From the NCBI GenBank assembly GCA_026392035.1, contig JAPLCX010000108.1, positions 4,634 to 68,633 on the forward strand: a DNA stretch of 64,000 nucleotides, read 5' to 3'. Positions 744 to 64,000 of the stretch are shown here, one piece after another. The notes beneath the pieces are model-generated. The model worked only from the letters and a program-made list of their open reading frames with translations, was not told where the DNA came from and did not search any database. Each line of letters starts with the position of its first letter. The stretch's first letter is position 1. The translations under genes and the position numbers were made by a program. Origin of the DNA: Candidatus Auribacterota bacterium (GTDB taxonomy: Bacteria > Auribacterota > Tritonobacteria > UBA1439).

Positions 744-1316
744 ATGAATAGCAATCGAGTGTCCATACCAGCGGAGCGAATCGAGGGATTGATTCTTCTG
801 ATACGGGGGCAGAGGGTTATGTTGGATTCCGATCTGGCAAAGTTGTATGAAGTCACGACATCAAACCTGAACAAGGCGGTCAGACGTAATCCCGAGCGTT
901 TTCCGTCCGATTTCATGTTCCAGCTTAATGCATCCGAGTACCGGTCTTTAAGATTCCAATTTGGAATCTTAAAGCGCGGCCAGCACTCAAAATACCTGCC
1001 ATTGGCCTTCACCGAGCAGGGCGTTGCGATGCTCTCCAGCGTATTGAACAGTCCTCGCGCTATACAGGTAAATGTAGCCATTATGCGCGCTTTTGTACGC
1101 TTGCGCCAATTACTTGCCACACATGCAGGCCTGGCCCGAAAGCTTGAGGAGATGGAGCGCCAGTACGACCGGCAATTTCAGGTTGTGTTTGAAGCTATCC
1201 GTGAACTAATGAAGCCTCCGGAACCAAAAAGACGGCAGATCGGGTTCCATGTCCGGGAACGGCGTGCCTCATATTCCGCTCGACGGAAAAAGGTTGTGAA
1301 ACATGCTCGACGCTGA
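744..1316 (+). CDS. ORF6N (KilA-N-like) DNA-binding domain protein
   Basis: N-terminus [42 protein letters not shown] matches the ORF6N domain signature. Basic C-terminal tail. Inserted between hsdR and hsdM. Confidence 0.75.
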
Positions 1317-1428
1317 AACCAAAGCGAGAATAGATTCCGCCCGCGACATCCTGGTGGGCGCTATATTACCCTCTCCCTCTGGAGGGAGAGGGCGGGGTGA
1401 GGGGGAATATTTTGCTCTTCGTGACTGA
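1303..1428 (+). pseudogene. Duplicated 5' fragment of hsdM ([19 protein letters not shown]...) followed by an unrelated 22-codon tail and a stop
   Basis: nt 1303-1360 are ~88% identical to the true hsdM start at 1452-1510 (MLDTDTKARIDSARDILVGK). The ORF6N stop codon lies inside this copy. Confidence 0.5.
1360..1395. other. GC-rich inverted repeat/hairpin (CCCTCTCCCTC-TGGA-GGGAGAGGG) in the spacer between the hsdM 5' duplicate and the real hsdM
   Basis: Perfect 9-11-bp arms seen directly in the sequence. No T-tract follows, so it is not a canonical terminator. Confidence 0.4.
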
Positions 1429-1451: not shown

Positions 1452-3929
1452 ATGCTTGATACTGATACAAAAGCGAGAATAGACTCCGCCCGCGATATCC
1501 TGGTGGGCAAGGTGCCTGATCCAAAATCCCAGGTGGAGCAAATCACCATCGCCCTGATCTACAAGTTCATGGACGACATGGACCGCCAGTCGGAGGAACT
1601 GGGCGGCAAAGCGGCTTTCTTCTCCGGTGAGTTCAAGAGATACGCTTGGAATCACCTACTCGATAATCGCCACAGCGGCCATGAGCGGTTACTTCTCTAC
1701 GCCGAAGGCATAGAGAAGATGAATACCAATAAGAACATCCCGCAGCTTTTCCGCGATATCTTCAAGGGCGTCTTTCTTCCCTACCGCGATCCAGAAACGC
1801 TGAATCTTTTTCTTAAAGAGATTAATGGATTCACGTATGATCACAGCGAAAGGCTTGGGGATGCGTTTGAATATCTCCTCTCTGTTCTCGGAAGCCAGGG
1901 AGAAGCCGGACAGTTCCGAACACCGAGGCACATTATTGACTTCATTGTCTCAATCGTCAGCCCTCAGAAAAATGAAACTATCCTCGATCCCGCATGTGGC
2001 ACCGCGGGATTCCTGATCTCATCTTACAAGCATATCCTAATCCAGAACACCAAGGATCGCCCCGGAGATAAACTTACGGCCGACGAACGCGGCAGGTTAA
2101 TGACAAATTTCTGCGGCTATGACATATCGCCCGATATGGTGCGATTGTCCCGCGTAAATATGTACCTGCATAGTTTTGCAAATCCGCGCATCCACGAATA
2201 TGACACATTGACAAGTGAGGAGCGATGGGACGAGCGCTATGACGTGATCCTGGCTAATCCGCCTTTTATGTCACCCAAAGGTGGTATTCGGCCCCATAAT
2301 CGCTTCAGCATCAAAGCTACCCGAAGCGAGGTGCTGTTTGTTGACTATATCGCTGAGCATCTCAACGTCAATGGCCGCGCCGGCATCATCGTGCCGGAGG
2401 GAATTATTTTTCAGTCGCAGAATGCTTATAAGAAACTGCGGAAGATGCTCGTCGAGAATTATCTCTGGTGTGTGGTTTCGCTCCCCGGCGGTTGTTTTAA
2501 TCCTTATTCCGGAGTGAAGACGAGCATCCTCCTCCTCGACAAATCGCTGGCAAAGCGGATAGATGAAATCATGTTTGTGAAGATAGGGGATGATGGGTTT
2601 GATCTCGGCGCGCAGAGGAGGCCGATTGAGGAGAATGATTTGCCCGAGGCACTGGCGCTAATTAAGAAATGGAAGGAAGGTAACAAAGAAGTTCAAGAGG
2701 CGCAAAAGAAATTGGCTCATGCCGTCAGCTGCAAACAGCTCCTTGAATCCGGCGATTGCCACCTCTCCGGCGATCGCTACCGGGATAAGGGTATTCGAGT
2801 CAGCGGCAAGTGGCCGATGGTGCCCATTGGAAAACTGTGTGAGAACATTAAAAATGGCCTCACTCCAAAAGAACATAGAGGACGTGTTGTCTATATTGGG
2901 CTAGAAAATATTGTATCAAACTCCGGTGAGCTTGTCGGAGAATTTGAATCCGAAATTAAAGCAATAAAGAGCACAAAACTGCGTTTTCAGAAAAATAATA
3001 TCTTATATGGCAAACTGCGTCCCAATCTTAATAAGGTTTGGCTTGCGGACCGTGATGGAATTTGCTCCACCGATATAATGGTTTTGCGCTTCAATTCGAT
3101 CCTTGCAAACCCTTCTTTATTTGTACATATCCTTAGGCAAAAGATCTTCAATAACAAAGTGCTCCAGGGACTTGTTGGAGCACAATTGCCAAGAATCAAA
3201 TTCTCATACTTTGTATCTATAGATGTCCCCCTTCCCCCTCTGGAAGTACAGGAGCAGATTGTCGCGGAACTGAACGGCTATCGGAAGATCATCGAAGGCG
3301 CAAAGCAAATCATCGCCAATTACAAACCGACCATTAAGATTAATTCGGCCTGGCCGATAGGTGTTTTGAAAGAGGTGGCAGAGATTAATCGATTAACAAT
3401 TGACCCGGGTGAGAAATATGGCAGCCGAGAATTTTGCTATGTCGACATTTCCTCTGTAGAAAACGGTACCGGGAGAGTTATGTTCGGTAATCGCATAAAA
3501 GGTAGTGAAGCTCCCAGTAGGGCACGCCGTGTCGTCGCCAAAGGAGACGTTTTGCTTTCAACGGTTAGGCCAAACTTGAAAGCATTCGCCTGCCTCGATG
3601 AGGTCCCGGATGATGCTGTTGCTTCAACCGGGTTTGCTGTTTTGACACCTCGTGCAAACAGAGTATTAAGTCGGTTCCTCTGGCATCTACTTTTCGATGA
3701 TTGCGTCCTGGCGCAAATGCTAAGCAGGATGGGGCGAGGTGCATATCCGAGCATAAATCAATCAGATGTTGAATCCCTGAAAGTCCCCCTTCCGCCCCTC
3801 GACATCCAACACCAGATCGTTGACACGCTCGAATCGGAGCGGGCGATAGTAGACGCGAACCGGAAGCTGGTCGAAATGTTCGAGCAAAAGATTCAGGCCA
3901 AGCTCGCAGAAATATGGGGTGAAGAATAG
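1452..3929 (+). CDS. hsdM: Type I R-M methyltransferase-specificity fusion: N6-adenine MTase (HsdM) domain fused in frame to a two-TRD HsdS
   Basis: HsdM motifs: LDPACGTAGFLI (motif I) and LANPPFMSPKGG (NPPF, motif IV). The HsdS part begins near aa 440 (from ~nt 2770) with TRD1. The central conserved repeat is LPPLEVQEQIVAELNGYRKIIEGAKQII. TRD2 and the C-terminal conserved repeat LPPLDIQHQIVDTLESERAIVDANRKLVEMFEQKIQAKLAEIWGE follow. One uninterrupted 825-codon ORF. RBS AAGGAAG upstream. Confidence 0.85.
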   Translation: MLDTDTKARIDSARDILVGKVPDPKSQVEQITIALIYKFMDDMDRQSEELGGKAAFFSGEFKRYAWNHLLDNRHSGHERLLLYAEGIEKMNTNKNIPQLFRDIFKGVFLPYRDPETLNLFLKEINGFTYDHSERLGDAFEYLLSVLGSQGEAGQFRTPRHIIDFIVSIVSPQKNETILDPACGTAGFLISSYKHILIQNTKDRPGDKLTADERGRLMTNFCGYDISPDMVRLSRVNMYLHSFANPRIHEYDTLTSEERWDERYDVILANPPFMSPKGGIRPHNRFSIKATRSEVLFVDYIAEHLNVNGRAGIIVPEGIIFQSQNAYKKLRKMLVENYLWCVVSLPGGCFNPYSGVKTSILLLDKSLAKRIDEIMFVKIGDDGFDLGAQRRPIEENDLPEALALIKKWKEGNKEVQEAQKKLAHAVSCKQLLESGDCHLSGDRYRDKGIRVSGKWPMVPIGKLCENIKNGLTPKEHRGRVVYIGLENIVSNSGELVGEFESEIKAIKSTKLRFQKNNILYGKLRPNLNKVWLADRDGICSTDIMVLRFNSILANPSLFVHILRQKIFNNKVLQGLVGAQLPRIKFSYFVSIDVPLPPLEVQEQIVAELNGYRKIIEGAKQIIANYKPTIKINSAWPIGVLKEVAEINRLTIDPGEKYGSREFCYVDISSVENGTGRVMFGNRIKGSEAPSRARRVVAKGDVLLSTVRPNLKAFACLDEVPDDAVASTGFAVLTPRANRVLSRFLWHLLFDDCVLAQMLSRMGRGAYPSINQSDVESLKVPLPPLDIQHQIVDTLESERAIVDANRKLVEMFEQKIQAKLAEIWGEE

Positions 3930-4094: not shown

Positions 4095-5336
4095 ATGTTT
4101 GGACAAAAGTATTTTGAACAACGTATTGGCGACATTTTCCATTTATCTCCAATCCCGTACTTGTGTGGCGATGGTGAGTTATCCAATTCACATGAATCAT
4201 GCAAAGTGCGGTGGGAACTGAATGTTCCTATCACCGGGGAACCACTTCTTGTCATTAGTACTGGCAAAGTGATCACGCCTGATAGTTGGATTACAGCAGA
4301 CCGACAGTTTGTTGAGTGGATATTGACAGGAGCCACAGATGATAAATTATTCTTGATCGCAGCGGAAGCAGTCATATTAAATAGAATGAAGCCTTCATCT
4401 GATGAGCAGCCGAATTATTATTTTAGCCAGTTTCGGCAGATGGATATTTTGCGAAGTTCATCAAAAGCAGTTACTAAATTAGAGGCAATAACGCTTAATT
4501 TTACATTTGAAGGTACAGATAAATTCCAAATAGCAGTCGCTGGAAGGCAAATCCACTTCCGACAAAGCAAGCAGTATAGCGAGTTAAGGGAGCTTATAAA
4601 GATCAAACGGATTGATCGCGCCTTAATTTCTGAGATCCATGTTCCACTACTTGAAGGAGAGACGCTAGAAATGGGGATAGAGATCCTATTCACGCTAGGA
4701 TGGTTAATTTCTTTTCTCACCTTAAACCGAGTTTCAACTCCATTGCTTCGCCTGCTAGACAATGAAACGTTGTGTGGTTGGAGAATTATGGAGCTCCGTT
4801 CTTATCCTTATCATCCTAGTGAAATCATTGATAATAAAATAATCCCAGAAGGCATCAAGAAATGCCTCGAATCAGTATATGATAATTTTGTGAGGTTTAG
4901 TAAATCGCTAGAGCTGGAACGACTCGTAGATATGATTTTGACAGCGTATCAGGAGGGGCTTGTGGAATTCAAAGTGGCTGGGCTTATTTTAGGATATGAA
5001 CTATTTTGTACGTCTTTTCTGAAATATAAAGGCAGACCGCTGACTCTAGAATCTAACATCGAGCAGAAGCTAAATGGTGTAAATAGTTATCTTCGCTTTA
5101 TACCCGCGCATTTGCTTAACGAAAGACTGCGGAAAGATATTCGCAACCCGCTTTTTCACGAAGGATTGATTATTGGGATTGATACAAGGAGTTTATTTCG
5201 ATGGTATAAAGAATATTTGGATCTATTGATAGAAATGCTTTTATTTATTTTAGGCTATAAAGGGAATTTTATTTCACGCGTAGATTATAAGCCCATTCCG
5301 GTCCCGATATCCGCAGGCAAATCCAATATCCCTTGA
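4095..5336 (+). CDS. Hypothetical protein (413 aa); first gene of the AT-rich two-gene island; no recognisable catalytic or NTP-binding motif
   Basis: Long ORF in a markedly AT-richer stretch than the flanks. Codirectional with the SIR2-like gene 70 nt downstream. No Walker A, TIR-like or HEPN-like motif seen. Confidence 0.6.
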   Translation: MFGQKYFEQRIGDIFHLSPIPYLCGDGELSNSHESCKVRWELNVPITGEPLLVISTGKVITPDSWITADRQFVEWILTGATDDKLFLIAAEAVILNRMKPSSDEQPNYYFSQFRQMDILRSSSKAVTKLEAITLNFTFEGTDKFQIAVAGRQIHFRQSKQYSELRELIKIKRIDRALISEIHVPLLEGETLEMGIEILFTLGWLISFLTLNRVSTPLLRLLDNETLCGWRIMELRSYPYHPSEIIDNKIIPEGIKKCLESVYDNFVRFSKSLELERLVDMILTAYQEGLVEFKVAGLILGYELFCTSFLKYKGRPLTLESNIEQKLNGVNSYLRFIPAHLLNERLRKDIRNPLFHEGLIIGIDTRSLFRWYKEYLDLLIEMLLFILGYKGNFISRVDYKPIPVPISAGKSNIP

Positions 5337-5405
5337 TGACAGAAGTGGAACACAGGCTATGATGAATTCATTGAGCGTATATATGTCAGGCAATAATCGC
5401 TTTGC

Positions 5406-6605
5406 ATGAATATGAAAATCATACTTTTTCTGGGATCAGGAGTATCATTTCCGACGGGATTGCCATGTGCGAAAAAGGTAACAGATTCTATTCTCAGCGA
5501 TGAATGGCATAGTTGTAGTGATGGGATATTTCGACCGGGGCCAGAACCGAATCAGTATTTTCGAGACGATAATCTCGCGCCTTGTCTTCAGCAGTTTCTA
5601 AAATTGCTTAAGGAATATGCTGACGCTTATTATTCAAATAAGCATAGGCCAGAGTCGAATTACGAAGATTTATATTACCTCGCGCAGCAGATAGAGGATG
5701 AGGAGTTGGGAGAGATATTTAATCCAGCCATACGGCCTTTTGTCGAAGAGATAAAAAACAAGACTGTAGCATTATGCAGTCGGGAACAGTTTGGTATCAA
5801 AGACTTAACTTTTAGAGAGCTAGGCTGGAAAGCTTGCATATTTATTGAATATGCTTTATGGCAACTTTTGGGTACTAACAATAATCCTGAAGGGATGAAT
5901 CTCATTAAAGAGCTTGCGCTATCGCCAGAAGTTGAAGCTTTAGATATTCTCACTTTGAATCATGACATTCTAGTAGAAAGATTCCTTAGTCGTAACGGAA
6001 TTCAATATGCTGATGGTTTTGGGCTACCTGATGGAGATGTTAGGTTTTTTAAGCCATCGACATATGATGAGGATATCAAGGTTCGCCTTTTCAAACTTCA
6101 TGGCTCAATCAACTGGTTTTGGCTTAGACGCCGTGAGGGTGATATTGCCATTGCTGAATATGGCATCCCAATAAATAATGACATTTGGCACTTTAAAGAT
6201 GCAAAAGGTGAGAACATTGATAACTTGATGGGCGGGCCCAGAATTTTGATAGGGACTTATAACAAGATACCGGATTATGGTCAGGGCATATTTTCAGGAG
6301 TACACCTCAAATTTCAGTCTATTCTCCCAGAACGTGATTTGATGGTTATGTCCGGCTATGGCTGGAATGATAGGGGGATATCTCTCCGCCTTCGAGAATG
6401 GCTTAATTCTTCAATGGATAAACGCCTTTATCTATTGCATCAAAATCCTGAATCAGAAATTCGCGATAAATCAAAAAGTGGAATGTGGCACTGGTATGAG
6501 CCATGGGTAAAAGAGGGAAGGCTTGTGCCAATTAAGCAATGGTTGTGTGATATTAAATTACCTGAACTAATCGGAATAATTAAAACCCATCGAAGTGTGC
6601 ATTAA
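5406..6605 (+). CDS. SIR2-like protein (SIR2_2 / DHS-like NAD-binding family), standalone, 399 aa
   Basis: Rossmann start ILFLGSGVSFPTGLP. Catalytic-pair region LTLNHDILVE (Asn) ... FKLHGSINWF (His), arranged as in ThsA/DSR-type SIR2 domains. Later LMVMSGYGWNDRGI motif. The whole protein is SIR2_2-like. Confidence 0.75.
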   Translation: MNMKIILFLGSGVSFPTGLPCAKKVTDSILSDEWHSCSDGIFRPGPEPNQYFRDDNLAPCLQQFLKLLKEYADAYYSNKHRPESNYEDLYYLAQQIEDEELGEIFNPAIRPFVEEIKNKTVALCSREQFGIKDLTFRELGWKACIFIEYALWQLLGTNNNPEGMNLIKELALSPEVEALDILTLNHDILVERFLSRNGIQYADGFGLPDGDVRFFKPSTYDEDIKVRLFKLHGSINWFWLRRREGDIAIAEYGIPINNDIWHFKDAKGENIDNLMGGPRILIGTYNKIPDYGQGIFSGVHLKFQSILPERDLMVMSGYGWNDRGISLRLREWLNSSMDKRLYLLHQNPESEIRDKSKSGMWHWYEPWVKEGRLVPIKQWLCDIKLPELIGIIKTHRSVH

Positions 6606-6663
6606 CTCCGTTCAACGACTATAAAGATCAAAGAGGCAGCCCCTCTTAAACAGCGTTTAGAAA

Positions 6664-6697
6664 CTTTTGGAGCGCGCAAAACCAAGAGCCTGCGGAG
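6664..6697. repeat. Repeat family R1, copy a (CTTTTGGAGCGCGCAAAACCAAGAGCCTGCGGAG)
   Basis: Near-identical copy at 7183-7217. Seen directly. Confidence 0.6.
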
Positions 6698-6821
6698 CCG
6701 AGGTCAGAGGTTTCTTTTCCTGCACCCGTGGAGCCCGTGGGGGAAATCGAAGGGGATCACTAAAAACAGCGGGAATTTTTTCTCTCATTCTAATCCCAAT
6801 TTTAGCATTGCTGCCCAACCC

Positions 6822-6875
6822 ATCCGCCTTGACTCACGCAAATGTTATTGACCTCATCCATGAACGCTCAACCCC
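6822..6875. repeat. Repeat family R2, copy a (ATCCGCCTTGACTCACGCAAATGTTATTGACCTCATCCATGAACGCTCAACCCC); contains two -35-like hexamers TTGACT/TTGACC
   Basis: Second copy 105 bp downstream (6927-6980). Partial third copy 6981-7006. Confidence 0.6.
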
Positions 6876-6926
6876 GCCGCCCTGCTGCCCATTCCCTCCC
6901 GCATCTATAATTGGAATGCTAAAAAG

Positions 6927-6980
6927 ATCCGCCTTGACTTACGCGAATGTAATTGACCTCACCCCTGAGCGCTCAACCCA
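6927..6980. repeat. Repeat family R2, copy b
   Basis: ATCCGCCTTGACTTACGCGAATGTAATTGACCTCACCCCTGAGCGCTCAACCCA, ~85% identical to copy a. Confidence 0.6.
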
Positions 6981-7182
6981 TCCTCCTTGACTCGCATGAA
7001 AGTTATCGGCATACGCATTTAAGCGTCCACGACACCTCAATAAAGCTTCCCCATCATAAGCGGAGTGGAAGCGGAGAGGGTACGGAGAGGGTGTCTCCCT
7101 GGGTGAGAAAAGAACCCCCCGCACCATCTCACGGTGATGCGGGGGCTTTCCAGAGCCACCGGGGATTATGCCTTTTAATGAG

Positions 7183-7217
7183 CTTTTAGAGCGCGCGAAA
7201 AACCTGGAGCCTGCGGA
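7183..7217. repeat. Repeat family R1, copy b
   Basis: CTTTTAGAGCGCGCGAAAAACCTGGAGCCTGCGGAG; pairs with 6664-6697. Confidence 0.6.
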
Positions 7218-7688
7218 GAGATTCCCGAGACTAAAGTCTCGGCTACGAGTCTCGGCTACCAAGCCCGGCCACGCCCCGGTCCCGGTGGGACTTCCCTTCG
7301 GCGGGGTCCCTACCGGGAGAGGAGCAAAGAAAAACAGCACAGGTCATGAGTCGGAGTCGCAAGGAGCGTGACAGCTATGCTAAGGCACCTCAACTAAGCT
7401 CGGTGACTTCGTCGCGCTCCTTGCTTCACATATGGAGCCAGCGCGGCCTGTCGAGTCGGGAGTGGTATGCTCCGAAGATCCTTCGCTGCGCTCAGGAGCT
7501 CCGCGGGGACGGGCGAGCAATCAATATGCCTTCAGGAACTTGAGATTCCGCTTCCGGGAGCGGTGGATTATGTTAGGCAAGATCACCGGGAACAAGGCCC
7601 CTCGGCTATGCTCGGACTCTCCGCTCGTTCGCAAAAGCTCACTCTCTCCGACTGGTAATGGGGCCTCGATTTGAGCCATTTTTTCATT

Positions 7689-7733
7689 TCGAACCAACTC
7701 CGACCGGGAAACTGGTCGGGGTTGGTTCGTTTT
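7689..7733 (+). terminator. Intrinsic terminator on + strand: long hairpin CGAACCAACTCCGACC-GGGAAACT-GGTCGGGGTTGGTTCG followed by TTTTG
   Basis: 15-bp interrupted stem plus T-run, read directly. Marks the 3' end of a + strand transcript from the gene-free region. Confidence 0.6.
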
Positions 7734-7863
7734 GCCTCCGGCTTCGCCTCCGGAACACACGCGCGCGTTGAAGAGATTTGAATAAATGAAAAGGGATAGG
7801 CTGCTCCCCGAATCTGATTACCACGAGCGTGTCGAAAAGATTCCTGCGGCGGAGGCAAAATAC

Positions 7864-7895
7864 AAAAGGCCCTTATAAAGGGCCCTTTGCATTTT
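7864..7895. terminator. Bidirectional intrinsic terminator (AAAAGGCCCTT-ATAA-AGGGCCCTTT flanked by T/A runs)
   Basis: Hairpin with T-runs on both strands, immediately downstream of the minus-strand lipoprotein gene ending at 7968. Confidence 0.6.
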
Positions 7896-7967
7896 AGCGC
7901 CATGACCGCCGATGTGATTTTCTCCGGCTCCAGCCGGCGGCGCGGTCACAGGAGAAAAGGCTGACGC

Positions 7968-8291
7968 TCAGATAACCGTGTCGAAAACCATCGCGATCAT
8001 CCGAAACGGCAGTGCCACGACATCCCCGATCAGGATGAAAAACCTCCCCACGATACTGTGGGATTCCTTCTCCTTTATGATCGTTGTCTCTTTGACTACC
8101 TTCCCGGGCTCTCCCGGCGTGGGCTCCGTTTTATAGACGGTTTCTTCCTTGGTGACAGACTTGGCAGATGAGCCGCACCCGGTCATGAGAAGCGACGCCA
8201 TGAAGATCACCACCACACCCAGGATTATCCCACGATGCCAGCCTGCCGTTGATCGCCATATATTCATTTCGCTCCTCTCTTTAGGCAACAA
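7968..8291 (-). CDS. Small lipoprotein (signal peptide with lipobox LLMTGC), unknown function
   Basis: Hydrophobic N-terminus ending in LMTGCGSS. Lys/Glu/Thr-rich mature part. Confidence 0.45.
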   Translation of the reverse strand: MLPKERSEMNIWRSTAGWHRGIILGVVVIFMASLLMTGCGSSAKSVTKEETVYKTEPTPGEPGKVVKETTIIKEKESHSIVGRFFILIGDVVALPFRMIAMVFDTVI

Positions 8292-12462: not shown

Positions 12463-12690
12463 CCCCAGGGGCAAGCCGGGGATGACACCGGACGAGTGGA
12501 GCGATCTTCTGTACTCGGAGGTGACCCACAAGGAAATTGCAAAAATGGGAGAGGAGTATCAAAAGAGCCTGAATGACGAGAGGCAAAGGCAAGAGAAGAT
12601 ACGCGTGGCACCCCGAAGAGCATCGAAAGGCACGGATTCGGCCAAGAAATTGGGCGGTGAGGGGAGAATACCGGCCTCCCTGAGAACTCG
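12463..12690. repeat. ~225-bp dispersed repeat, copy 1; contains a conserved Lys/Glu-rich small ORF (MTPDEWSDLLYSEVTHKEIAKMGEEYQKSL...)
   Basis: ~90% identical to 14529-14752. The same small ORF and the same antisense ORF start (MWVTSEYRRSLHSSGVIPGLP) are present in both copies. Confidence 0.7.
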
Positions 12691-14528: not shown

Positions 14529-14752
14529 CGCGGGGGCAAGCCGGGGATGACACCGGACGAGTGGAGCGATCTTCTGTATTCGGAGGTGACCCACAAGGAA
14601 CTTGCGAAAATGGGAGAGGAGTATCAAAAGAGCCTGAAGGACGAGAAGCAAAAGCAAGGGAAGAGACGTGCGGCACCCCCAAGAGCACCGAAAGGCACGG
14701 ATTCGGCCAAGAAATTGGGCGGTGAGGGGAGGATACCGACCTCCAAGAGATC
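14529..14752. repeat. ~225-bp dispersed repeat, copy 2
   Basis: See copy 1. This copy interrupts the parA-like reading frame. Confidence 0.7.
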
Positions 14753-40736: not shown

Positions 40737-40850
40737 ATGTCATTGCGATCCCGCAAAGCGGGAGAAGCAATCTCATGTTCTGCAATGAGTTGGGATTGCC
40801 GCGTCCGCCTCGTCCCGCTTAGCGGGACTCGGCGTCCTCGCAATGACAAC
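40737..40850. repeat. MITE-like ~114-bp palindromic element with terminal inverted repeats TGTCATTGCGA / TCGCAATGACA and internal GC hairpins; copy 1
   Basis: Second copy at 62108-62216 with the same termini (TGTCATTGCGAG/CTCGCAATGACA) and the same internal GCAATC...GATTGC palindrome. Confidence 0.6.
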
Positions 40851-61747: not shown

Positions 61748-61796
61748 GATCATGTGTCGGGACGCGAGAGGATACTCAAAACATCAGGGTCATCTC

Positions 61797-61908
61797 TACA
61801 CTAACAAGTTAGTTGTAAATCTGTTTCACCCGTTTCGCCAATTTTCGGTCTTTCAACATCTGCTTCTGAAGACGCATATGATTATTCGTCACCGGAGCTC
61901 CGCCAATC
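61797..61908. repeat. ~110-bp repeat, right copy (inverted relative to 57723-57834); itself flanked by a 14-bp inverted repeat ACATCAGGGTCATC / GATGACCCTGATGT (61781-61794 / 61970-61983)
   Basis: Read directly on both strands. Confidence 0.7.
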
Positions 61909-62107
61909 CCACTCAATTCAGCTCCCAATTTCTCGAGAGGCCTATAGCTCATAGGCCATGCCCTGAATTGATGACCCTGATGTGACTTCCATAAACCCAT
62001 TTCCGATGAGCAGATGTAAAAGCTTCAGGGCCAGACCATGATTATTGACTAAGTACACCTTGTCATAAATACGGTTACGCGATGCAACCCGTGCGCAACA
62101 CGTTGCA

Positions 62108-62216
62108 CCATGTCATTGCGAGGAGTCCCGCTTGGGGGGACGATGAAGCAATCCGCTCCAAAGGTTTATAGAGATGAGATTGCCGCGCCCCACTTCGTGG
62201 GGCTCGCAATGACATG
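62108..62216. repeat. MITE-like palindromic element, copy 2 (termini TGTCATTGCGAG / CTCGCAATGACA)
   Basis: Same termini and internal palindromes as 40737-40850. Confidence 0.6.
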
Positions 62217-62300
62217 ATAGGGCTGATAGCGATTGTTGTCGCACAGTTGAAATACGTCACCTAACTTTATGACCCCGAGCACTAAGGGTCCTATTGCCAC

Positions 62301-62675
62301 ATGGCAAGATCGCCGAGGATTGAATATCCGGCACGGTATCCTGGCCCGAGTCGCGGGAGAGAGCGTGATGAGATATCCAGATACGGCAAGGGCAGGCAGC
62401 GGTTTCTCGAGGAAGAATTATCAGAGCGCAAACATAAAATGGAAACCCGAGGAATCCTGTTGGCCTTGCCTGCGCCTGGTACTATAATTGATCCAAGAGA
62501 ACCGAGGGGACATGTGAGGGCAGGCGGGATAGGCAAGGATAAGCCGCACTCTTACGTAATGGGACAGTTATGGGGTGGGAGATACACCCTCAGCCCTGCC
62601 CTTCCTTCGGCAGGCTCAGGACAGGCTCCCCTTTGGAGGGGGAGGGGATATGATCCTAGACCCCGCCGAAACTGA
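62301..62675 (+). pseudogene. Second decayed copy of the RAYT/IS200-like transposase 5' region (MARSPRIEYPARYPGPSRGRERDEISRYGKGRQRFLEEEL...)
   Basis: The first ~45 codons track the transposase N-terminus consensus (EYPGAxYHVxSRGNERxDIFRDxxDRxRFLEEL) with many substitutions, then diverge. ~80% nt identity to 57621-57700. Confidence 0.45.
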
Positions 62676-62760
62676 TCCATCGCACTCTTGCGCGCATTTG
62701 GCAAAGACAGAGGGCACATGGAAGAGTTTCCCCGCAGAGATCGGGGGATTGTAAAGGGAG

Positions 62761-64000
62761 GCTGATTCTCATGGAAAACAGGGAGATTGCCGATATCTTC
62801 GAGGAGATTGCGGATATCCTCGATATCCGGGGTGAGAACCCGTTCCGGATACGGTCGTACAGGAACGCCGCGCGTGCGATCGGGGATATGTCCGAGAGCG
62901 TTGCCGCGATGGTGCGTGAGGGGAAAGATATCGAGACTATCCCCGGGATCGGGAAATCCATCGATGAGAAGATAAGGGAGATTGTCACTACAGGAAAGCT
63001 CAAATTCCTCAACGAGTTGCGCGCGAGCCTTCCGAAGGGGCTCACGGAGCTTCTCCGGATCGAGGGGCTCGGTCCCAAAAAGGTGAAACTGTTCTATGAA
63101 AAAATGAAGATTGATTCCGTCGACAAGCTCGAGGCGGCCGCGAAGGGAGGCACGCTGCGCGAGCTTGAGGGGATGGGGGACAAGAGCGAAGAAAATCTAT
63201 TGAAGGCGATTGCGCGCTACCGGGCGGGGCAGGGGCGGTTCAAACTCTCCGTAGGTCTGGAGTACGCGGAGTCTATCGCCCGCTACCTCAAGAAGTCCAA
63301 GGGTGTGAAGGCGATCGAAGCGGCGGGAAGCGTCAGGCGGAGGAGGGAGACAGTGGGGGATCTGGATATCCTGGCGATCTGCGCCCCCGGCTCGGATATT
63401 ATGGATCGATTCATCAAATATGACGGCATCGAGCAGGTCACTGCGAAGGGGACGACGAAGTCGAGCGCCCGCCTCTCCTGCGGCCTCCAGGTGGATGTGC
63501 GGATGCTCCCCGTGGAGAGTTTCGGGGCTGCACTCCTGTACTTTACCGGTTCAAAAGAGCACAACATCGCGATCCGGACACGCGCAGTGGAGCGGAAATT
63601 GAAGGTGAGCGAGTACGGCGTGTTCCGGGGAGAGAAGCGCATCGCCGGCAAATCGGAAGAAGATGCGTACAAGGCATTGGGGCTACCGTTTATTCCCCCT
63701 GAGATCCGTGAAAACCACGGTGAGATCGAGGCGGCGGAGAAGGGGATGCTCCCCAGTCTCATTGAGCTCAGAGACATACGGGGTGATCTTCAGATGCACA
63801 CCACCGCAACGGACGGCAAGGCGTCGATCCTCGACATGGCACAGAAGGCAAAGGATCTCGGTTATGAGTATATCGCCATTACAGATCATTCGAAGGCGGT
63901 GAAGGTTGCGGGGGGACTCGACGAGAAAGAACTCGCCCGGCATCTGAAAGCTATCGAGAAGGCGCAGGATCAGATCAAGGGACTGCGCATCCTCAAGGGG
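62761..64000 (+). CDS. polX: DNA polymerase/3'-5' exonuclease PolX (Pol-beta-like domain + PHP domain), 5' part; runs off the 3' end of the window
   Basis: Open frame from the ATG at 62761 to the window end. HhH/8-kDa and fingers motifs (GIGKSIDEKIRE, GLGPKKV), NTase core GSVRRRRETVGDLDIL, then PHP-domain start GDLQMHTTATDG...ITDHS. Confidence 0.85.

What the first reader, a model, noticed from the sequence alone, without database searches (positions are those of the whole stretch)
6606..7960. 1.3-kb gene-free, repeat-rich, hairpin-dense region bounding the SIR2 island: candidate structured ncRNA or integration/decay scar
No ORF in this interval looks real. Both strands give only short, mutually overlapping frames, and one 'protein' (6667-6990) is just a translated DNA repeat. 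Instead the region contains:
- two unrelated repeat families, each present twice: R1 at 6664/7183 and R2 at 6822/6927, the latter carrying TTGACT and TTGACC -35-like hexamers;
- multiple GC hairpins, e.g. CCCGGTGGGAC...GTCCCTACCGGG near 7275;
- a very strong intrinsic terminator on the + strand at 7689-7733;
- a bidirectional terminator at 7864-7895.

A + strand RNA of several hundred nt ending at ~7733 is therefore plausible. It could be a large structured ncRNA of the kind found near mobile or defence DNA, or a regulatory leader array. Alternatively, this is the decayed attachment/recombination scar at which the AT-rich island was inserted.
Basis: seen in the sequence. Interest (0 to 1): 0.55.

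Follow-up and report, generated by a model that had tools for sequence, protein, structure and literature searches.

The report
Patchwork non-coding junction beside defence island
The 1.36-kb gene-free stretch is real, but it is a fast-changing patchwork of insertions, decayed repeats and transcription terminators between a conserved chromosomal gene and a swappable restriction/SIR2 defence island, not a conserved structured RNA gene.

Summary
Nothing identifies the region: no Rfam family, no tRNA or tmRNA, no Pfam or NCBIfam hit in any frame, and no match among 5.8 billion proteins.

Comparison with the few available relatives (Candidatus Auribacterota/Aureabacteria metagenome contigs) decides the interpretation.
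- **Closest SIR2 locus (L020/L021, 90% nt):** it runs from R1 directly into the 7225-7273 palindrome. So 6698-7182, which holds the "R2" repeats, is an insertion flanked by the duplicated R1. L020 also lacks 7274-7630.
- **Relatives sharing the right-hand gene (L018/L019):** they keep only 7822-7967, that gene's 3' UTR and terminator, joined directly to the same palindrome plus 13-nt tandem repeat (M3).
- **L017:** homology stops exactly at 7960, next to half of M3.

The most structured part, 7274-7630, and the strong terminator are therefore absent from every relative. Both strands fold equally well, and no covariation test is possible.

Best reading: a recombination-prone, decaying island junction anchored on a locus-specific GTAG-tagged palindrome, with convergent terminators. 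The ncRNA idea is unsupported and the scar idea is largely right. Interest is low. M3 as a possible recombination site is the only curiosity.

The parts
5406..6605 (+). SIR2-like gene (399 aa), the last gene of the Type I R-M/SIR2 island and the left flank of the interval
   Evidence: Pfam SIR2_2 and PADLOC SIR2 hits. It is 100% identical to an NCBI 'Candidatus Aureabacteria bacterium' protein, with 86% and 77% relatives.
6606..6663 (.). M1: the 3' flank of SIR2, which travels with the gene. It contains a weak hairpin at 6631-6647.
   Evidence: It is part of the continuous 90% nt match of window 5362-6697 to L020/L021. The hairpin is not significant (z -1.3).
6664..6697 (.). R1a: the left copy of the duplicated R1 motif, followed to about 6712 by a degenerate start of the M3 palindrome (CCGAGGTCAGAGG)
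   Evidence: nhmmer with an R1-M3 profile gives E 9e-7.
6698..7182 (.). INS1: a 485-nt lineage-specific insertion bracketed by R1a and R1b. It has no homologue anywhere.
   Evidence: L020 and L021 pass from window 6697 directly to 7181 with a single R1. No protein, Rfam, plasmid, phage or viral match was found.
6810..7026 (.). Three of the four units carry CCTTGACT; two of these also carry a downstream TTGACC.
   Evidence: Alignment A1 has 69% mean column identity. Units a and c are 84-88% alike, and unit b is badly degraded. The array is too diverged for TRF to report.
7116..7145 (-). GC-rich hairpin with a T-rich tail on the minus strand only (terminator-like), at the right end of INS1
   Evidence: 11-bp stem followed by GTTCTTTTCT. 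-24.2 kcal/mol, z -3.1.
7183..7218 (.). R1b: the right copy of R1, continuous with M3 as in L020/L021
7225..7273 (.). M3: the palindrome CCGAGACT-AA-AGTCTCGG, followed by 13-nt tandem units (CTACGAGTCTCGG) and a degenerate further unit. On the minus strand each unit reads GTAG+CCGAGACT. It is the one element shared by all relatives and it lies at every rearrangement breakpoint.
   Evidence: TRF reports period 13 with 1.9 copies. The hairpin has z -3.7. M3 is 31/31 identical in L019 and 92% identical in L020. L018 has 4 units against 2 here. Half the site sits at the L017 breakpoint. No other copy exists in the 64-kb window or in the fetched loci. The same-strain contig L008 ends at 7229.
7274..7630 (.). 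INS2: a 357-nt GC-rich, hairpin-rich, lineage-specific segment. It includes hairpins at 7281-7318 and 7359-7424.
   Evidence: It is absent from L020, which has 37 unrelated nt in its place, and from L018/L019. Folding z is about -3 on both strands. No homologue was found.
7631..7683 (.). M4: a short module shared with L020
   Evidence: 75% identity to L020 11385-11437. A minus-strand mini-ORF starting here has a stop at codon 16 in L020, as read from the sequences.
7690..7733 (+). Strong intrinsic terminator on the plus strand (18-bp stem plus TTTTG). On the minus strand it is flanked by A-runs, so it acts on the plus strand only.
   Evidence: It is absent from all relatives. Three same-strain Logan contigs end at 7705 inside it.
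7734..7821 (.). Spacer. It contains the palindrome ACGCGCGCGT (7759-7768), a 31-nt L019-like patch (7759-7789), a possible degenerate 13-mer at 7805-7817, and the start of the 30-codon ORF 7783-7875.
   Evidence: The ORF scores positive. However, only its last 18 codons lie in sequence shared with L018/L019, and L019 has a 1-nt deletion there (read). It is therefore not conserved as coding.
7822..7967 (-). 3' UTR of the 99-aa gene, with its terminator (the palindrome at 7857-7895, usable in both directions). This is native chromosomal sequence.
   Evidence: 85-87% identical in L018 and L019 and contiguous with the gene. It folds best on the minus strand (-24.9 kcal/mol, z -6.4). It is deleted in L017, where homology ends at 7960.
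7968..8267 (-). Conserved 99-aa membrane-protein gene, the right flank and chromosomal anchor
   Evidence: The exact protein occurs on 10 public contigs, with 81-95% relatives in three JGI metagenome contigs. It has a positive coding score.

Best explanation
Bases 6606-7967 are the non-coding junction between a conserved chromosomal gene (99 aa, minus strand) and a variable Type I restriction-modification/SIR2 defence island on the plus strand. The junction is not one functional unit. It is a patchwork of four kinds of piece:
1. The native 3' UTR and terminator of the 99-aa gene (7822-7967).
2. A small set of conserved junction modules: R1, the GTAG-tagged palindrome with its 13-nt variable-number tandem repeat (M3), and M4.
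3. Two orphan, lineage-specific insertions: INS1 at 6698-7182, bracketed by duplicated R1 (plus part of M3), and INS2 at 7274-7630.
4. Terminator hairpins facing each other, at 7690-7733 on the plus strand and at 7857-7895 and 7116-7145 on the minus strand.

**Shown:**
- The absence of coding signal and of any homologue.
- The module boundaries and the insertion status of INS1 and INS2.
- The coincidence of every observed breakpoint with M3.
- The island content differs between strains that share an identical right flank.

**Inferred:**
- M3 and R1 act as the recombination-prone site at which DNA is gained, lost and exchanged. This happens either passively, through palindrome and tandem-repeat slippage plus homologous recombination on a conserved anchor, or through an unidentified enzyme.
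- The R1 duplication is the footprint of one such event.
- The 53-nt array and the other orphan sequence are decaying leftovers of earlier occupants.
- The terminators stop island and chromosomal transcription from running into each other. In that case the SIR2 mRNA would carry a long 3' tail ending near 7733.
For: **No gene.**
- ORF hexamer scores are negative.
- Six-frame translations find nothing in Pfam or NCBIfam at E<=10.
- They also find nothing among 5.8 billion proteins at E<=0.1.
- The R1 copies differ by indels that are not multiples of three.
- No gene was called in 7229-7967 on L008.

**No known RNA.** Rfam finds nothing and there is no tRNA or tmRNA, here or in relatives.

**Mosaic structure.**
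- L020/L021 match 5362-6697 at 90% and then jump to 7181-7273 at 92%. L020 then skips to 7631-7683; L021 ends within M3.
- L018/L019 match 8302-7822 and then jump to 7273-7225.
- L017 homology ends at 7960, followed directly by AGTCTCGGC.
- The AGTCTCGG/CCGAGACT motif is concentrated at this locus in all relatives. It is otherwise at chance level, and the tandem copy number varies between 2 and 4.

**Variable island.**
- An ENA contig with the identical 99-aa protein has a 1171-nt gene-free gap. Beyond it lie a 143-aa ORF, two ORF6N genes and HsdR, with no hsdMS, no 413-aa gene and no SIR2.
- L017 and L019 carry housekeeping genes there instead.
- Same-strain contigs break at 7229, 7477 and 7705.

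**Composition and terminators.**
- GC rises from 0.40 in the SIR2 module to about 0.59 from 7000 onward, which is the host level.
- The terminators are individually significant.

**Precedent.** Integrase-less replacement of defence content between conserved anchors is described for the E. coli immigration control region. An accessory effector embedded in a Type I locus is described for PrrC (PMC12707154).
Against: - Only five informative relatives exist (L017-L021), so the direction of each indel (insertion here or deletion elsewhere) is inferred by parsimony.
- The left end of the island lies outside the window, so no second M3 or R1 copy marking the other boundary could be sought.
- The DNA of the alternative-island contig (ERZ1426817) is not available.
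- INS2 folds significantly better than shuffles (z about -3 to -4) and is followed by a very strong plus-strand terminator. A pure "junk" reading does not explain this.
- M3 is 31/31 identical to L019 while its flanks are about 85% identical (chance about 0.01). This hints at constraint or recent exchange rather than passive decay.
- No transcription data were available.
Confidence: 0.62

Rival explanations
1. R1-M3 is a true site-specific recombination or transposition site. It would be comparable to an attC site, a pdif site, or a REP recognised by a Y1/RAYT enzyme. The interval would then be a short array of cassettes, each ending in such a site: the SIR2 module, INS1, and 7274-7821.
For: - Three or more different left-hand contexts abut the palindrome at the same nucleotide (window/L020, L018, L019, L017).
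- INS1 is bracketed by direct R1(+M3') copies of at least 36 nt, as expected for att-core duplication.
- 7274-7821 has M3 on its left and a possible degenerate 13-mer at 7805-7817 on its right (read).
- On the minus strand M3 has the REP layout of a GTAG tag followed by a palindrome (PMC3733652).
- M3 is invariant over 31 nt against about 85% identity in the flanks.
Against: - No integrase, recombinase or Y1 transposase lies near the site. This holds for Pfam on the tested neighbours, for the gene list of the ENA variant over about 10 kb on each side, and for tblastn of an IS200 TnpA against the window.
- M3 and R1 occur nowhere else in the 64-kb window or in the fetched loci, and not in viral contigs.
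- The other gene boundaries of the island lack the motif.
- Palindromes and tandem repeats are deletion and insertion hotspots without any enzyme.
- The right-hand 13-mer remnant is weak.
Confidence: 0.15
2. A lineage-specific structured non-coding RNA of about 460-550 nt is transcribed on the plus strand from about 7180-7280 to the terminator at 7733.
For: - Folding z is -4.2 for 7160-7740.
- Individual hairpins have z of -2.5 to -3.8.
- The plus-strand-specific terminator is exceptionally strong (-34.7 kcal/mol, z -6.2).
- There is no coding signal.
Against: - The complementary strand folds equally well (z -4.0).
- There is no Rfam match.
- No promoter-like site precedes it on the plus strand.
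- 7274-7630 and the terminator are absent from every relative sharing the flanks.
- No homologue exists in phage, plasmid or viral collections.
- The terminator is equally well explained as the stop for SIR2-operon read-through towards a convergent gene.
Confidence: 0.12
3. The interval encodes one or more small proteins that composition-based scoring misses. Candidates are toxin-antitoxin-like peptides starting MPFNELLERAKNLEPAER (7168) or MAQIEAPLPV (7678, minus strand), or the 30-aa ORF 7783-7875.
For: - ORF 7783-7875 has a positive hexamer score.
- The 7168 N-terminus resembles antitoxin N-termini. This is from memory only.
Against: - No family or protein hit exists in any frame.
- The 7168 ORF runs through R1 and M3, whose copies differ by 1-2-nt indels.
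- The MAQIE ORF has a stop at codon 16 in L020, as read from the sequences.
- The 30-aa ORF is frameshifted in L019 and only half of it lies in conserved sequence.
Confidence: 0.05
4. The four ~53-nt units at 6810-7026 are a functional repeat array. It could be a type III antitoxin-like RNA, or an iteron or operator array.
For: - The units are arranged in tandem and carry recurring TTGAC motifs.
- A hairpin follows at 7116-7145.
Against: - The units are only 65-88% alike, and one is nearly unrecognisable.
- The following hairpin has its T-tail on the wrong strand.
- No toxin-like or replication-initiator gene follows.
- The whole array is missing from the nearest SIR2 locus.
- No copies occur elsewhere.
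Confidence: 0.03

Closest known systems
Variable defence-island hotspots between conserved anchor genes, such as the E. coli immigration control region (ICR, hotspot 36), and accessory effectors embedded in Type I R-M loci, such as PrrC in EcoPrrI (PMC12707154)
   Same: - A conserved chromosomal anchor gene sits next to Type I R-M genes plus an extra effector (SIR2).
- The island content differs between strains with identical flanks.
- No integrase is present at the site.
   Different: - The phylum is different (Candidatus Auribacterota).
- Only one flank is visible in the window.
- The junction carries a specific palindrome/VNTR at every breakpoint. Whether the ICR has such a feature was not checked here.
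GTAG-tagged repetitive extragenic palindromes (REP/BIME) and their RAYT transposases (PMC3733652)
   Same: - On the minus strand M3 is GTAG followed by an 8+8 palindrome of about 22 nt.
- It lies downstream of convergent genes.
- It occurs as a cluster of adjacent units.
   Different: - REPs are high-copy and dispersed. M3 is found only at this locus in all sequence available.
- The units are head-to-tail repeats of a 13-mer, not alternating inverted REPs.
- No RAYT or Y1 gene is present in the window.
att-core direct repeats flanking integrated elements, integron attC cassette arrays (CALINs), and pdif modules
   Same: - A segment (INS1) is bracketed by direct copies of a motif of 36 nt or more.
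- The same motif is single at the unoccupied site (L020).
- Modules end in a palindromic site.
   Different: - No integrase is present.
- The bracketed segment has no gene.
- There is no attC-like or XerC/D-like site architecture, and no attC match among the Rfam E-value hits.
- Only this one locus is known.
Rho-independent terminators between convergent transcription units
   Same: GC-rich stems with U-tracts: 7690-7733 on the plus strand, 7857-7895 in both directions, and 7116-7145 on the minus strand.
   Different: The plus-strand terminator lies 1.1 kb beyond the last plus-strand gene. The minus-strand one at 7116 has no gene upstream of it within the interval.

Membership tests
Any curated RNA family (Rfam 15) | Covariance-model score at or above the family's gathering threshold | tested here: not met
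   There are 0 hits in the whole window and in L017-L020. In E-value mode the best hit is 26.8 bits against a threshold of 56, and it is terminator look-alikes only.
Structured ncRNA (general) | Sequence conservation with compensatory base changes in homologous regions | tested here: not met
   7274-7733 has no counterpart in any relative. The only conserved hairpins, M3 and the UTR terminator, are invariant and so give no information.
Structured ncRNA (general) | Strand-specific excess of folding energy | tested here: not met
   z is -4.2 on the plus strand and -4.0 on the minus strand.
tRNA/tmRNA-anchored integration site | A tRNA or tmRNA gene, or a fragment of one, at the island boundary | tested here: not met
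   ARAGORN finds none in the window or in L017-L020.
REP / BIME (GTAG superfamily) | A 20-40-bp palindrome with an unpaired GTAG tag at one end | tested here: met
   The minus strand reads GTAG-CCGAGACT-TT-AGTCTCGG. The definition is from PMC3733652.
REP / BIME (GTAG superfamily) | High copy number, dispersed through intergenic regions of the genome | tested here: not met
   The only copies are at this locus, across the 64-kb window and the fetched loci. The rest of the genome was not available.
REP / BIME (GTAG superfamily) | An associated RAYT (Y1 transposase) gene | tested here: not met
   tblastn of an IS200 TnpA against the window gives nothing below E 0.2. L020 has an IS200 with different hairpins. 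The whole genome was not testable.
Integron cassette array / CALIN | An intI integrase, or two or more attC sites with R''-L''/L'-R' architecture | tested here: not met
   No integrase was found among the tested neighbours or in the ENA variant's gene list. M3 is a simple 8-bp palindrome. The attC architecture was not formally modelled.
MITE | Terminal inverted repeats, target-site duplication and multiple genomic copies | tested here: not met
   INS1 and INS2 have no significant terminal inverted repeats; the best is 12/14 nt at E 17. They have no other copies.
Type III toxin-antitoxin (ToxI-like RNA repeats) | Near-identical tandem repeats, then a terminator, then a toxin gene on the same strand | tested here: not met
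   The units are 65-88% alike. The hairpin's T-tail is on the opposite strand. No toxin-like ORF follows.
Intrinsic terminator | A GC-rich stem-loop followed by a U-tract on the transcribed strand | tested here: met
   Met at 7690-7733 (+), 7857-7895 (both strands, better on -) and 7116-7145 (-). Termination itself is not testable here.
Defence-island hotspot (ICR-like) | A conserved flanking gene with different defence content in different strains | tested here: met
   The identical 99-aa gene lies next to an island with SIR2 (window) or without it (ERZ1426817), and next to housekeeping genes in L017/L019. The second flank lies outside the window.
Protein-coding gene or pseudogene | A homologue detectable in any reading frame | tested here: not met
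   Pfam, NCBIfam and PADLOC give nothing. A six-frame query against 5.8 billion proteins gives none at E<=0.1.

The most novel reading that the evidence does not exclude
The GTAG-tagged palindrome with its 13-nt variable tandem repeat (M3, with R1) is the recognition site of an unidentified recombination system in Auribacterota. That system would insert, delete and exchange modules, including the 1.4-kb SIR2 module and gene-less segments, next to a fixed chromosomal anchor. It would be a single-locus, integrase-distant analogue of attC, pdif or REP-RAYT cassette exchange for defence genes.
Probability: 0.1. Interest if true: 0.55.

Novelty: new member of a known kind. Interest (0 to 1): 0.2.

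Why it matters
Mostly as a caution. A long, hairpin-rich, repeat-rich gene-free stretch beside defence genes looks like a candidate for a new large ncRNA. Here, a handful of related contigs is enough to show it is a pile-up of insertions and leftovers at an island junction.

The useful residue is twofold:
1. It gives a concrete example, in a barely studied candidate phylum, of a Type I R-M/SIR2 island whose content is swapped next to a fixed anchor gene.
2. It yields a short, sharply defined palindrome/VNTR that marks every breakpoint. This motif could be used to find further variants of the locus and to test whether exchange is site-specific.

Tried and rejected
- **Rfam.** Gathering and E-value modes give only terminator look-alikes.
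- **tRNA/tmRNA.** None found.
- **blastn of the interval against plasmids and phages.** No match.
- **Five exact-pattern scans of viral contigs.** Queries were the R2 core, M3, two INS2 hairpins and the terminator. All returned 0.
- **ORFs and six-frame translations.** Searches against Pfam, NCBIfam, PADLOC and the 5.8-billion protein collection found nothing.
- **GTDB genome scan with the 492-aa neighbour.** The nearest genomes (77% aa, Lac Pavin Auribacterota MAGs) share no synteny beyond that gene, so they were useless for this interval.
- **Exact-protein look-ups.** The SIR2 protein (two start sites) and the long-start versions of the neighbours are not on record.
- **Attempt to recover the alternative-island strain's 143-aa ORF.** A search with the HsdM N-terminus returned only unrelated HsdM fragments. 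The ERZ1426817 DNA therefore stayed out of reach.
- **Antitoxin idea for the ORF at 7168.** Rejected: there is no family hit, and non-triplet indels separate the R1 copies.
- **IS200/PATE idea for 7274-7821.** Rejected: there is no Y1 gene in the window, the hairpins differ from those of L020's IS200, and no significant terminal repeats exist.
- **k-mer enrichment.** It gave only a modest CGGAG/CTCCG bias.
Full report
**1. What is in the sequence**

The interval lies between the stop of a SIR2-like gene (5406-6605, plus strand; Pfam SIR2_2 and PADLOC SIR2) and the stop of a 99-aa membrane-protein gene (7968-8267, minus strand). The 99-aa gene's start was corrected after translation, and the exact protein is on 10 public contigs.

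Upstream of SIR2 lie:
- a 413-aa protein with no family hit;
- an HsdM-HsdS fusion (1452-3929);
- an ORF6N gene;
- the 3' end of an 840-aa HsdR.

Together these form a Type I R-M island with an embedded SIR2 effector.

Terminator-like hairpins are about four times more frequent than in shuffles: 12 against 3.2 +/- 1.6.

I add four refinements:
- "R2" is a decayed array of four ~53-nt units at 6810-7026.
- R1a is followed by a degenerate start of the 7225 palindrome.
- There is a 13-nt tandem repeat at 7235-7260 and a minus-strand terminator-like hairpin at 7116-7145.
- Excess folding energy is confined to about 7100-7900. The left 450 nt fold no better than shuffles.

**2. Is anything encoded?**

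- **Coding score.** A hexamer score trained on 23 long genes of this window is negative for every ORF of 40 aa or more in the interval. It is positive for both flanking genes.
- **Family and protein searches.** Six-frame translations find nothing in Pfam or NCBIfam even at E<=10. PADLOC gives nothing for the three gap ORFs tested. There is nothing among 5.8 billion proteins at E<=0.1.
- **Indels.** The R1 copies and their L020 counterpart differ by 1-2-nt indels.
- **The one positive ORF.** A 30-codon ORF (7783-7875) scores positive. It lies only half within conserved sequence and is frameshifted in L019.
- **Known RNAs.** Rfam finds nothing at gathering thresholds in the window or in relatives. 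In E-value mode it finds only terminator look-alikes. There is no tRNA or tmRNA.

**3. Relatives**

The organism is a member of Candidatus Auribacterota/Aureabacteria. The SIR2 protein is 100% identical to an NCBI MAG protein, and the nearest GTDB genomes are Lac Pavin Auribacterota MAGs. Those genomes (77% aa in a neighbouring gene) share no synteny.

Closer sequences came from two routes.

*Right-flank route*, via the 99-aa gene:
- Same-strain contigs L005-L009 are 100% identical. They end at 7705 (three contigs), 7477 and 7229.
- An ENA contig has the identical 99-aa protein but a different island. It has a 1171-nt gene-free gap, then a 143-aa ORF, two ORF6N genes and HsdR. It has no hsdMS, no 413-aa gene and no SIR2.
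- Three JGI contigs are more distant: L017 (95% aa), L018 and L019 (81-82% aa).
- L017 is homologous up to window 7960, 8 nt past the stop codon. It then continues with AGTCTCGGC and unrelated sequence.
- L018 and L019 are homologous through 7822 (about 85%), including the bidirectional terminator. They then continue directly with the palindrome and 13-nt tandem repeat that lies at 7225-7273 in the window. L019 is 31/31 identical there. L018 has 4 tandem units against 2 here.
- Downstream, L017 and L019 carry housekeeping genes and no island.

*Left-flank route*, via SIR2:
- L020/L021 (86% aa) match window 5362-6697 at 90% nt. They then run without interruption into 7181-7273 at 92%, with a single R1.
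- L020 then has 37 unrelated nt, a 75% match to 7631-7683, unrelated sequence, and an intact IS200 with its own hairpins.
- Upstream of SIR2, L020 has a different Type I system.

**4. Resulting anatomy**

| Coordinates | Module | Status |
|---|---|---|
| 6606-6663 | M1 | SIR2 3' flank, travels with the gene |
| 6664-6697 | R1a | Left copy of duplicated R1 |
| 6698-7182 | INS1 | Window-specific; holds the 53-nt array and the minus-strand hairpin |
| 7183-7218 | R1b | Right copy of R1 |
| 7225-7273 | M3 | Palindrome plus 13-nt tandem repeat, shared by all relatives |
| 7274-7630 | INS2 | Window-specific; the most structured part |
| 7631-7683 | M4 | Shared with L020 at 75% |
| 7690-7733 | Plus-strand terminator | Window-specific |
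| 7734-7821 | Spacer | Contains a 31-nt L019-like patch |
| 7822-7967 | 3' UTR and terminator | Native to the 99-aa gene |

Three points follow.
- INS1 is bracketed by direct copies of R1 (plus a degenerate M3 start), whereas L020 has one copy.
- M3 is the only element present in all relatives.
- Every breakpoint seen lies at or within about a dozen nt of M3: window against L018/L019, L018 against L019, L017, and window against L020. The end of contig L008 also falls there.

The M3 motif is otherwise at chance frequency in the window and in the other fetched loci scanned.

**5. Interpretation**

The structured part and its terminator are not conserved in any relative. No covariation can be assessed. 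Both strands fold equally well (z -4.2 and -4.0). There is no promoter-like site on the plus strand.

The "scar" reading fits. This is a synteny break and a strain-variable defence locus. Its junction has accumulated orphan insertions and decaying repeats around a conserved, recombination-prone palindrome/VNTR.

The terminators make sense as insulation between convergent transcription. The 7857-7895 hairpin is the conserved terminator of the 99-aa gene. The 7690-7733 hairpin would stop plus-strand transcripts coming from the island. The SIR2 gene has no convincing terminator of its own (the 6631-6647 hairpin has z -1.3).

These functional statements are inferences, because no expression data were available.

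**6. Comparison with known systems**

- **Defence hotspots.** The locus behaves like hotspots between conserved anchors that lack a resident integrase, as described for the E. coli immigration control region. The SIR2 gene is placed like accessory effectors embedded in Type I loci, such as PrrC (PMC12707154).
- **REPs.** On the minus strand M3 has the layout of GTAG-tagged REPs (PMC3733652). It fails the copy-number and RAYT criteria in the sequence available.
- **att cores, attC sites, pdif sites.** The R1 duplication around INS1 resembles att-core duplication. However, no recombinase is nearby and no site architecture of those families is present.
- **MITE and type III antitoxin arrays.** Both definitions are not met.

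**7. Verdict**

This is an ordinary kind of feature in a little-studied phylum, and interest is low (0.2).

The residual curiosity is whether M3/R1 is an active recombination site. I put this at about 0.1-0.15, and a motif scan plus the missing ENA contig would test it directly.

A lineage-specific sRNA in 7274-7733 cannot be excluded without RNA data. I put this at about 0.12.

Noticed in passing
window 1303-1359 and 1452-1508, palindrome at 1363-1386: The first ~57 nt of hsdM (encoding [19 protein letters not shown] / MLDTDTKARIDSARDILVG) occur twice, 149 nt apart. They are separated by a perfect palindrome, CCCTCTCCCTCTGGAGGGAGAGGG. This looks like the footprint of an allele or cassette replacement at the 5' end of hsdM. 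Nine same-population contigs all end about 250 nt after the ORF6N gene.
   Followed up: partly
window 40738-40847; L017 12099-12166; L019 6045-6314; probably window ~62.1 kb: An inverted-repeat element (tcattgcgat...gcaatc / ...cctcgcaatgac) recurs in the window and in related contigs at 78-84% identity. It appears to be a dispersed MITE/REP-like family of this lineage and is unrelated to the finding.
   Followed up: no
window 61748-63282: A second long (1.5-kb) stretch with no ORF of positive coding score. It is longer than the interval under study.
   Followed up: no
window 4095-5336: The 413-aa protein between the HsdM-S fusion and SIR2 has no Pfam or PADLOC hit. In the nearest SIR2 locus (L020) it is absent and SIR2 follows HsdR directly, so it is not an obligatory SIR2 partner.
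   Followed up: partly
L020 11650-12210: An intact IS200-type tnpA (about 140 aa, Y1_Tnp) flanked by identical CCACGGGCATGCCCGTGG hairpins. It is inserted about 300 nt downstream of M3 in the related SIR2 locus.
   Followed up: yes
ENA ERZ1426817 contig (no DNA held): A strain variant with identical right-flank genes but lacking hsdMS, the 413-aa gene and SIR2. It still has a 1171-nt gene-free gap next to the 99-aa gene.
   Followed up: partly
window 12468-12497 and 14533-14562: An exact 30-nt repeat about 2 kb apart. It coincides with the end of Logan contig L005.
   Followed up: no
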